Assembly (NCBI RefSeq): GCF_009914755.1
Contig: NC_060939.1
Source: the human T2T-CHM13v2.0 reference genome, Homo sapiens
Direction: 5' to 3' (one strand)
DNA: 64,000 nucleotides
The notes beneath the pieces are model-generated. The model did not search any database and had not been told where the DNA came from. It worked only from the letters and a program-made list of their open reading frames with translations. Positions 11,090 to 13,919 of this stretch are shown one piece after another; within the stretch, counting starts at the first letter, position 1, and every line of letters starts with the position of its first letter. The position numbers and the translations under genes were made by a program.

Positions 11090-11490
11090 TTATTTTTAAT
11101 TATTTATTTATTTTTTATTTTTTTTGAGACAGAGTCTTGCTCTGTCTCCCAGGCTGGAGTTCAGTGGCTCAATCTCTGCTTACTGCAACCTCTGCCTCTT
11201 GGGTTCAAGTGATTCTCCTGCCTCAGCCTCCTGAGTAGCTGGGGTTATAGGCACCCGCCATCATGCCTGCCTAATTTTTGTATTTTTTTGTAGAGATGGT
11301 GTCTCTAGCAAATTTGTAAAGTGTTAGCATTCTTTGAGGATGTGTGCTATGCTCAGGGAGGCACATTTTGTGTGGGTCTAGGGGAAAAAAATTCTGGTAA
11401 AACTGGTCTTGAACTCCTGACCTCGGGTGATCCACCCACCTCGGCCTCCCAAAGTGCTAGGATTACAGGCTTGAGCCACCACACCCGGCT
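11090..11490 (-). mobile_element. AluS interrupted by an 84-bp templated insertion
   Basis: Poly-T/(TTTA)n tail and complete antisense dimer; non-Alu sequence at 11305-11402. Confidence 0.95.
11305..11388. repeat. Inverted duplicate of 13836-13919 (recipient copy)
   Basis: 84/84 identity to the reverse complement of 13836-13919, checked base by base. Confidence 0.97.
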
Positions 11491-11589
11491 CATGCCTGTA
11501 ATTTTTCTACCTTGTAATCAAAACATTATTATTGTTTTATAAGCTAATATTCATTTAGATTCACCCTTTCCATTGCTCATAGTTCCTCT

Positions 11590-11700
11590 TTTATTATCCC
11601 CATTTTACAGATGCAGAAATTAAGATACAGAAGGGATAATTAAATTGTTTAAGGTTTTCTAGCTAGTAAGAGGCAGAAACAATACTTCAACCCAGGCTTG
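11590..11700 (-). mobile_element. MIR
   Basis: ttattatccccattttacagatgcagaaattaagatacagaagg...agctagtaagaggcaga...cttcaacccaggc. Confidence 0.8.
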
Positions 11701-12479
11701 TTACTATTAATTATTAATCCAAAGAGGGCAGAATTATTCTGACAGCTACGTTAGCTTAAAAAATTAGCGGGAATCAGTTTATATGACAAAGACTCAGAAG
11801 TGATAATCATGTTAATTGCTCTGCTTTATAGAACACATAGACTGTCTTAATCAACTTAACCCAAGTTATGCTTAAAATGTTTCTCAAAGCCATGAAATAC
11901 CTACATATAGAAGAATATAAATCATTTTTATATGGTTATTGCTATTCATAGAAATTATATCCCAAAATAAACATGGGGCCCAAATCTTACCTAGAGAGCC
12001 AGGGTACTTCCTGAAGAATCTTTGTCTTTTGGATGAATTCTCTATGGGGTCCACACAAGCCAGGTCTTTCTCTTAGATTGAATATAACTATCATTCATAC
12101 ATCTTCCCTCACATGCACATCCTAATCGTCCCATCAAGTTACCAAATTGTTTCACATTATCTAAGAAAATCACTTATGTGAAGTCATTTTGAAAACGAGC
12201 ACTATACAATTAGTTAGAAGTTATTATTTTGAACCCCTATTTTCCTTGGCCACATGATCCATATGCGAAGGTGGCTGAGTTTTAATTTAAGGTTTTCATA
12301 CTTGTTCACTTAGACTCTCTGAGTCTCCGGCTCCATCAGATCCCTATTAAGAAATGTTTATCTTTCTGTTCAGTGAGGCATATAGTTATGCAACCAGATG
12401 GCATGCGCTCAGATGGTGGTGAGAGGGCCTGAGATCTCAAGGGAGCAAGAGGGATTCTTGCCTAATACTCTGCACATTT

Positions 12480-12580
12480 TGATAAAGCTTTGTAAGTGTA
12501 AGGAATAAGGTCTTATTTAACTATGTATCCCCAGCATCAAGCCAATGTGGGCACAGTAAATGTCTGTAGAATTGAATTCC
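12480..12580 (+). mobile_element. L2 3' end fragment
   Basis: tgtatccccagcatc...ggcacagtaaatgtctgtagaattgaatt. Confidence 0.55.
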
Positions 12581-13835
12581 TTATGTTGATTCCATTGGTG
12601 TGGTGGTGACAAGAAGGAAGAGAAGCTGAGCGTCAAACATTGTGTCTCAGCCTGGCCGTGGCCCTAGCTTTAATTCTTATATACTGCACAGGGTACAGGC
12701 TAAGGGATTCTGGTTTTGCTCAGAATAAGGTGTTTATGCTCCAAAAGGGTGCTATAAAATATCTGTAACTCACTATCTGAATGCAAGTAACTTGGGTCAG
12801 AGGTCTTGGTAAACTCTTCCAATTGTTTTTTACATGTAATTATTCAACTTTCTCCCACCCATGACCCTCAGCATCATATGGGGCAAAGGAACATCAAGCC
12901 ATATTGAGTCCCAAAGAATATCAAGTAAGCATCTTACGGCTGTACAAGATAAATGTGAATAATAAAATCTCAATTTGTGCTATTATTTTTCCTTTCAACA
13001 ATAATTCTTTTCATTTTATCTTTTTGAATTTATATTAAAGATGTATAAGTTTAAATTCATAGGAGTTCTGGTTATTCATGATATATTAATATGCTCCCTG
13101 CAACACCATTTTGGTATTTTCTCCTTGTCTTATATATGCACTATTTTATACTGCTATAAAATTCACACTGGAGAGACACTGTGAAGTCTAAATTACTTAA
13201 GGTCAAATTCTATTCTTAGCCCTATGAGTGTTTAGAAAATTGAGATAAAAGAGGCAGAAATTTTTGACTTGAGATCACTCATCAATACTCTGCAATGAAA
13301 TCAGCTTTCCTTTGTGAAGTCCAAAAGTAAACACTAATGTCTGAATCATATACAGAATCTAATATCAGAGTAATAGTTAGGCTGGGCTTGAGGCTTGAGG
13401 ATAGGGAGAAAGAAAACTCTTATTTTTACACAGACTGTAACACTCTAGCATTTCACATATTTCTAGGAAGACTTATTTAATCCACCTTGTCATGTGCTGA
13501 CATTTAATAAACACCTCATTCCTCTATAGGTATTTTAAACAATGAGCTGCAGAATACCAAATCCCTGGCCAGTTAACAGTATTGAAATGACCAAACATTT
13601 ATATAGCTTCTTTTTTGAAAAATAAGGTTAATGGAAATAATTTCTATTTTAATATGACTTTCTTCATGCTGTGAACTGTATACATATGCATACCTGCAAT
13701 GTATATTACTGGCTGTGAAGGGACCATCCTTATTTGTGATGGTTATGATGCTTTTACAATATCATGCATATGGTTCCATTTGAAAGACATGTAATTCATT
13801 ACCTTCTTCTGTTGGTTAATAGCTTTATGAGAATG

Positions 13836-13919
13836 TTTTCCCCTAGACCCACACAAAATGTGCCTCCCTGAGCATAGCACACATCCTCAAAGAATGCTAA
13901 CACTTTACAAATTTGCTAG
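13836..13919. repeat. Donor copy of the 84-bp inverted duplication
   Basis: Unique-looking sequence whose exact reverse complement lies at 11305-11388. Confidence 0.97.

What the first reader, a model, noticed from the sequence alone, without database searches (positions are those of the whole stretch)
11305..13919. Exact 84-bp inverted templated insertion into an Alu, copied from 2.4 kb downstream
Seen in sequence: 11305-11388 is the perfect reverse complement of 13836-13919. It replaces about 15 nt of Alu consensus (accatgttggccagg) and has no TSD or poly-A. The right junction has a 14-nt filler (11389-11402) containing attct (donor continuation) and ctggt, which duplicates the Alu side (11394-98 and 11403-07). 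The Alu resumes in register, so this is an insertion and not an inversion breakpoint. Inference: a scar of double-strand-break repair with serial template switching (Pol theta/MMBIR-like). Zero divergence inside a clearly aged Alu suggests a recent, possibly human-specific or polymorphic event. If transcribed, the two copies could form a perfect 84-bp stem.
Basis: partly seen in the sequence, partly recalled or inferred. Interest (0 to 1): 0.7.

Follow-up and report, generated by a model that had tools for sequence, protein, structure and literature searches.

The report
Catalogued repair patch inside an Alu
An 84-base stretch of DNA sits as an exact reversed copy inside an old Alu repeat 2.4 kb from its source, likely a patch laid over a chromosome break in an ape ancestor; it is real but ordinary and matches an entry in a 2009 catalogue of 824 such patches.

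Summary
In detail: 11305-11388 is the exact, non-extendable reverse complement of 13836-13919, present only twice in the genome. It interrupts an antisense Alu that resumes in register, with about 15 nt lost, 1 nt of microhomology, a 14-nt filler and no target-site duplication. It is not new. Pace et al. 2009 (PMC2671141) Table S1 lists a 'repair-mediated duplication' on chr15 in an AluSx whose four coordinates, lengths, 2443-nt distance and 0% divergence map onto this locus under one offset. Zero differences is unremarkable: 4 of 77 such rows read have 0% against 4.3 expected, and the donor overlaps a conserved element. The repair/template-switch reading stands; serial switching and Pol theta remain unproven, since three parses of the filler fit. 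Verdict: already known, probably neutral; interest low.

The parts
11085..11305 (-). Host Alu (antisense), tail and part before the insert; AluSx in the matching catalogue row
   Evidence: 18-23% p-distance to 4 window Alus; subfamily label from Table S1 row 486
11305..11388 (+). Acceptor: exact inverted copy of 13836-13919; base 11305 is shared with the Alu (1-nt microhomology)
11389..11402 (+). 14-nt junction filler replacing about 15 nt of Alu; origin ambiguous
11403..11490 (-). Host Alu resumes in register
13836..13919 (-). Donor: unique sequence; flagged as overlapping vertebrate and mammal phastCons most-conserved elements in the catalogue row
13821..13835 (-). Donor continuation that resembles the filler (parse A: 11 matches in a 16-column alignment)
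   Evidence: 37 of 20000 random 15-mers score as well; 221 of 20000 without the two bases shared with the Alu
10796..10807 (-). Possible second template for the junction (parse B: 12-nt exact match to 11386-11397)
   Evidence: 1 of 51 control tiles of 1.2 kb gives a 12-nt match

Best explanation
An 84-base unique segment is duplicated in reverse into an older Alu 2.4 kb upstream, likely as a one-off germline double-strand-break repair patch that reportedly arose before humans, chimpanzees and orangutans split and is likely neutral. Shown: exact copy, polarity (the copy inside the Alu is the new one), about 15 nt lost, 1-nt microhomology at the left junction, filler at the right, no target-site duplication or poly-A signal. 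Which polymerase did this cannot be read from the sequence.
For: Anatomy. Catalogue match: Pace et al. 2009 Table S1 row 486 (hg18 chr15:33703464-33703551, ALUSX; donor 33705994-33706076, downstream, distance 2443, 0% divergence, HCO) maps with a single offset to 11306-11393 and 13836-13918; it is the only place with 2443 in the table and the only one of 26 proximal chr15 rows in this part of the chromosome. Microhomology + deletion + filler was the commonest breakpoint type among the 39 proximal events they inspected (10 of 39). Same class in population data: inverted duplications under 1 kb inserted within 5 kb of the other copy, mostly with 1-15 bp microhomology. Zero divergence fits the class: 4 of 77 HCO rows at 0%, 4.3 expected under an age mixture, 2.0 at a single pooled rate.
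Against: [quoted passage not shown] Taken alone, zero differences at the pooled HCO rate of 3.8% has probability 0.04. Left microhomology is 1 nt, below the 2-9 nt range in their Table 1. The table gives no orientation and no sequence, so identity rests on geometry, chromosome, host family and a recalled assembly offset. The table's filler (5 nt) differs from mine (14 nt).
Confidence: 0.88

Rival explanations
1. Same repair patch, but recent: human-specific or still polymorphic, the 2009 ape call being wrong.
For: 0 of 84 differences; with a flat prior on age and no ape data, 64% of the posterior lies under 1.2% divergence (the 1.2% human-chimpanzee figure is recalled). 7 of the 15 human-specific rows in Table S1 are also at 0%.
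Against: Row scored HCO. The copy is in both hg18 and CHM13 with identical spacing. In the 2009 PCR screen 9 of 10 human-specific patches were fixed, so even identical pairs were mostly not polymorphic. No hit for this position in the searchable supplement of the 1,019-genome study (file cut when stored, so weak).
Confidence: 0.05
2. The patch is old, and its exact identity is actively kept: by gene conversion between the inverted arms, or by selection on the copied conserved element or on an 84-bp RNA stem in the DPH6-DT intron.
For: Donor flagged as phastCons most-conserved; P(0 differences) 0.04 at the pooled rate; stem forms fully in the MFE fold, duplex -161.9 kcal/mol.
Against: Zero-divergence rows are as frequent as chance predicts (4 of 77 vs 4.3); the arm has no CpG, and a constrained donor alone lifts P(0) to 0.20; the acceptor is not flagged as conserved; an inverted Alu pair next door already gives a stronger predicted duplex (-220.7); no Rfam match at gathering level in 10000-15000 (0 of 11 weak matches).
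Confidence: 0.05
3. RNA-templated insertion: an antisense transcript fragment of the donor was reverse-transcribed by L1 machinery into the break (endonuclease-independent retrotransposition or class 1 templated insertion).
For: The copy ends in a run of 7 A, 4 of them templated. RNA-derived patches at breaks are described.
Against: No target-site duplication, target bases lost, no poly-A signal; only 3 untemplated A; donor is 2.4 kb away on the same chromosome, and none of 39 inspected proximal events had poly-A/T marks.
Confidence: 0.015
4. Assembly artefact of the CHM13 sequence.
For: Perfect identity between two nearby stretches is what a mis-join would give.
Against: The independent hg18 assembly holds the same acceptor-donor pair at the same spacing, and the junction carries a filler and a deletion.
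Confidence: 0.005

Closest known systems
Repair-mediated duplications (RDs), Pace, Sen, Batzer and Feschotte 2009, PMC2671141
   Same: Insert of 50 nt or more splitting a transposon, single donor within 5 kb, deletion, filler and microhomology, no poly-A. This very locus matches Table S1 row 486.
   Different: Nothing in kind. Shorter than the mean (162 bp) and at 0% divergence against a mean of 3.9% in the 77 HCO rows read; my junction parse has a 14-nt filler where the table has 5.
'Inverted Dup' structural variants of the 1000 Genomes Project (PMC4617611) and long-read inverted duplications (PMC12350158)
   Same: Short stretch under 1 kb copied in reverse within 5 kb of its source; short microhomology; replication/repair origin proposed.
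   Different: Those are polymorphic in humans; this one is reported as shared with apes and no polymorphism was shown here.
MMBIR templated insertions (MMB-TI), PMC8421209
   Same: Inverted templated insertion with replacement of target bases; multi-template junctions occur in germline events.
   Different: That search takes templates within 100 bp of the insertion; the donor here is 2.4 kb away.
Class 2 templated sequence insertion polymorphisms (TSIPs), PMC5110952
   Same: DNA patch at a break, with end-joining marks.
   Different: Defined by distant donors and by polymorphism; here the donor is local and polymorphism is not shown.
Doublets / short paired duplications (Thomas et al. 2004; seen only as cited in PMC2671141)
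   Same: Short near-identical local pairs, proposed to come from imperfect break repair.
   Different: Paper not held, so not compared in detail.

Membership tests
Repair-mediated duplication (Pace 2009) | Transposon split by an insert of at least 50 bp, the two halves in register (within 30 bp of consensus) | tested here: met
   Alu halves 15 nt apart in paralogue coordinates, 97 nt between them
Repair-mediated duplication (Pace 2009) | Insert found at exactly one other place in the genome | tested here: met
   2 matches genome-wide, the two arms
Repair-mediated duplication (Pace 2009) | Donor more than 50 bp and less than 5 kb away on the same chromosome | tested here: met
   2447 nt between arms
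Repair-mediated duplication (Pace 2009) | Deletion, filler and/or microhomology; no poly-A/T tail | tested here: met
   About 15 nt lost, 14-nt filler, 1-nt microhomology, 3 untemplated A, no poly-A signal; judged against paralogous Alus, not an empty orthologous site
Repair-mediated duplication (Pace 2009) | Empty site in an outgroup primate | not testable with these tools
   No relatives held for this genome; the table scores the row HCO, implying absence in macaque
Polymorphic inverted duplication SV (1000 Genomes class) | Under 1 kb, inverted, within 5 kb of the other copy | tested here: met
   against the definition
Polymorphic inverted duplication SV (1000 Genomes class) | Segregates in humans | tested here: inconclusive
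   No hit in the supplements that could be searched; the main call sets are not held
MMB-TI as searched by MMBSearch | Template within 100 bp of the insertion | tested here: not met
   Donor 2.4 kb away against the definition
Class 2 TSIP | Donor in a distant genomic region | tested here: not met
   Local donor against the abstract
L1-mediated insertion (class 1 TSIP, transduction) | Target-site duplication, poly-A tail behind a poly-A signal | tested here: not met

The most novel reading that the evidence does not exclude
A great-ape-specific second copy of part of a deeply conserved non-coding element has been held letter-perfect since before the orangutan split by selection or inverted-repeat gene conversion, acting as a duplicated cis-regulatory site or as a perfect 84-bp double-stranded RNA stem in the DPH6-DT transcript.
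Probability: 0.05. Interest if true: 0.5.

Novelty: already known. Interest (0 to 1): 0.1.

Why it matters
As it stands it matters little: it is one of 824 catalogued human repair-mediated duplications, intronic in a lncRNA, with no shown function. It is a clean teaching example of break repair copying a conserved element into a nearby Alu, and a caution that perfect identity over 84 bases does not mean recent. Only if ape orthologues showed both arms frozen or changing together would it become a test case for short-range gene conversion or for birth of a regulatory element by repair.

Tried and rejected
Inversion breakpoint: rejected, the Alu resumes in the same orientation and register. Known mobile element or RNA family as the insert: rejected, 2 genomic copies, and the 11 weak Rfam matches in 10000-15000 are all below gathering score, most of them Alu-derived. 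A single long template for the filler: none; the longest exact match elsewhere in the 64-kb window to a stretch overlapping the junction is 13 nt. Searches for the locus in SV supplements gave nothing: PMC4617611 (only the PDF is held, tables not), PMC12058530 (file unreadable), PMC12350158 (3 files, one cut); these blanks carry little weight, and unseen supplements may hold the locus. Three papers recalled as relevant (a 2015 deletion-breakpoint study, a 2018 ape SV study, the 2004 doublet paper) are not held, and nothing is taken from them beyond what PMC2671141 says of the last. A search for DPH6-DT, DPH6-AS1 or ATPBD4-AS1 listed 11 papers, by their titles expression signatures or GWAS mentions (listing only, none opened). 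The background scan covers 264 kb only. Earlier scan findings were not consulted.

Full report
Observation. Window 11305-11388 equals the reverse complement of 13836-13919 at 84 of 84 positions and cannot be extended by one base on either side; the repeat finder reports the same arms with 2447 nt between them. A search of the whole assembly with the arm scored two candidates, both arms and nothing else. In 264 kb of contiguous chr15 (the window plus 200 kb upstream), 11 exact pairs of 40 nt or more lie within 20 kb of each other; 8 are inside one GC-rich VNTR, 2 have homologous flanks, and this one alone has unrelated flanks on both sides (low-complexity matches were filtered out first). The feature is real and not chance.

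Anatomy. The copy at 11305 lies in an antisense Alu (about 11085-11490) that is 18-23% different from four other Alus in the window. In the alignment the Alu stops at 11305 and resumes in register at 11403; the paralogues have 15 nt at this place, the host has 83 + 14 nt. The copy inside the Alu is therefore the new one and the arrangement is an insertion with a small deletion, not an inversion. Base 11305 is shared by Alu and donor (1-nt microhomology). There is no target-site duplication, no poly-A signal on either strand of the arm and no CpG in it; the copy ends in 7 A of which 4 are templated.

The filler (11389-11402) is not resolved. Parse A: error-laden continuation of the donor to 13821, ending on two bases shared with the Alu; 37 of 20000 random 15-mers align as well, 221 of 20000 if the two shared bases are left out. 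Parse B: a second inverted template at 10796-10807, a 12-nt exact match; 1 of 51 control tiles of 1.2 kb, and 1 of 9 tiles of 6 kb, give a match that long. Parse C, implied by the catalogue below: a 5-nt filler, with 11394-11402 taken as decayed Alu, although only 4 of those 9 bases match the paralogue majority. All were found after looking, so the p-values are soft. From my own recall, Pol theta insertions are mostly much shorter and more local than an 84-nt copy from 2.4 kb, so the core fits strand invasion and copying better, with end joining making the filler.

The locus is in print. Pace, Sen, Batzer and Feschotte 2009 (PMC2671141; I read parts 1-6 of 8 of the main text, parts 1 and 7 of 15 of Table S1, and row searches) screened hg18 for transposons split by a copy of unique DNA and found 824 'repair-mediated duplications' with the donor within 5 kb. 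Table S1 row 486 reads: acceptor chr15:33703464-33703551 in ALUSX, donor chr15:33705994-33706076, downstream, distance 2443, filler 5, 0% divergence, present HCO, donor overlapping vertebrate and mammal most-conserved elements. One offset sends these four numbers to window 11306, 11393, 13836 and 13918, and the distance is 2443 in both: the donor minus the shared base, and the acceptor up to where a repeat aligner would restart the Alu. It is the only 2443 in the table and no other of the 26 proximal chr15 rows lies in this part of the chromosome. My rough hg18 position from recalled gene coordinates agreed within tens of bases, but that is recall, not a call; the table gives neither sequence nor orientation. 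I put the match at about 97%. It also means hg18 and CHM13 both carry the pair, which all but removes an assembly artefact.

Age. I could not re-test it, as no relatives are held, and the row's breakpoint columns are empty, so it seems not to have been hand-checked. From sequence alone 0 of 84 differences only bounds divergence below 3.5%. Among the 77 HCO rows in the part of the table that I read (of 142 in the paper), mean divergence is 3.9% and 4 rows have 0%; 2.0 are expected at one pooled rate and 4.3 under a mixture of ages. For 84 nt the chance of no difference is 0.04 (pooled), 0.08 (mixture) or 0.20 if the conserved donor does not change. The perfect identity is lucky but needs no conversion or selection. 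Against my reading: 0.04 is small, and 7 of the 15 human-specific rows are also at 0%, so a wrong ape call stays possible.

Mechanism, most likely (0.88): a germline break or stalled fork in the Alu; the left end invaded nearby DNA in opposite orientation on minimal homology, copied 84 nt, released, and was joined to the right end with loss of about 15 nt and a short filler. Microhomology + deletion + filler was the commonest pattern in the proximal events Pace et al. inspected (10 of 39), none of which had poly-A/T tails. The same geometry is the commonest outcome among sequenced human 'inversion' calls: 54% were inverted duplications, nearly all under 1 kb and within 5 kb (PMC4617611, passages); in long reads 277 inverted duplications had a median of 284 bp and mostly 1-15 bp microhomology (PMC12350158, passages). 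MMB-TI (PMC8421209, passages) and class 2 TSIP (PMC5110952, part 1 of 4) work alike but are defined by donors within 100 bp or far away, so the locus is not filed under them.

Function. Both arms are in an intron of the lncRNA DPH6-DT (hub annotation). In an MFE fold of 10601-13950 all 84 pairs form (duplex -161.9 kcal/mol), but the host Alu also pairs with an inverted Alu at 10621-10800 (143 pairs, duplex -220.7), so the insert would add to double-stranded RNA that is predicted anyway. This is computation only; no editing or expression data were seen. No Rfam family reaches its threshold here. A search for the lncRNA's names listed 11 papers, none opened, none by title about this element. The one open point is that the donor overlaps a conserved element, so the patch may have copied a regulatory sequence; Pace et al. 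report 82 of 824 donors with such an element, so that too is common.

Verdict. Observation confirmed; interpretation partly supported; already known, both as a class and very probably as this locus; interest 0.1. Most novel reading not excluded: the arms are kept identical by selection or conversion (probability 0.05, interest 0.5 if true). Supplements that I could not see (SV call sets of PMC4617611, PMC12058530, the cut part of PMC12350158) may bear on polymorphism.

Noticed in passing
window 2275-2433: Imperfect short inverted repeat with an exact 31-nt core (2291-2321 / 2388-2418) around a 66-nt spacer that holds a small tandem duplication; could be the ends of a small DNA-transposon derivative or a short-range template switch.
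   Followed up: partly
window 42899-44879: GC-rich VNTR with many exact direct repeats up to 79 nt, looking like the core of an SVA retrotransposon (label recalled).
   Followed up: no
window 7213-7284 and 30344-30415: 72-nt exact inverted match inside two otherwise 84-89% alike L1-like stretches 23 kb apart; longer than expected for that divergence, possibly a conversion tract or chance.
   Followed up: no
window 10621-10800 and 11104-11274: Inverted Alu pair only 309 nt apart, 78% complementary, predicted to pair in the DPH6-DT pre-RNA; a plausible trigger for the break or fork stall in the host Alu, untested.
   Followed up: partly
G000:C15:33291700 and 33293713 (L010): 27-nt exact direct pair 2 kb apart with poorly matching flanks; may be a smaller or older local duplication.
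   Followed up: no
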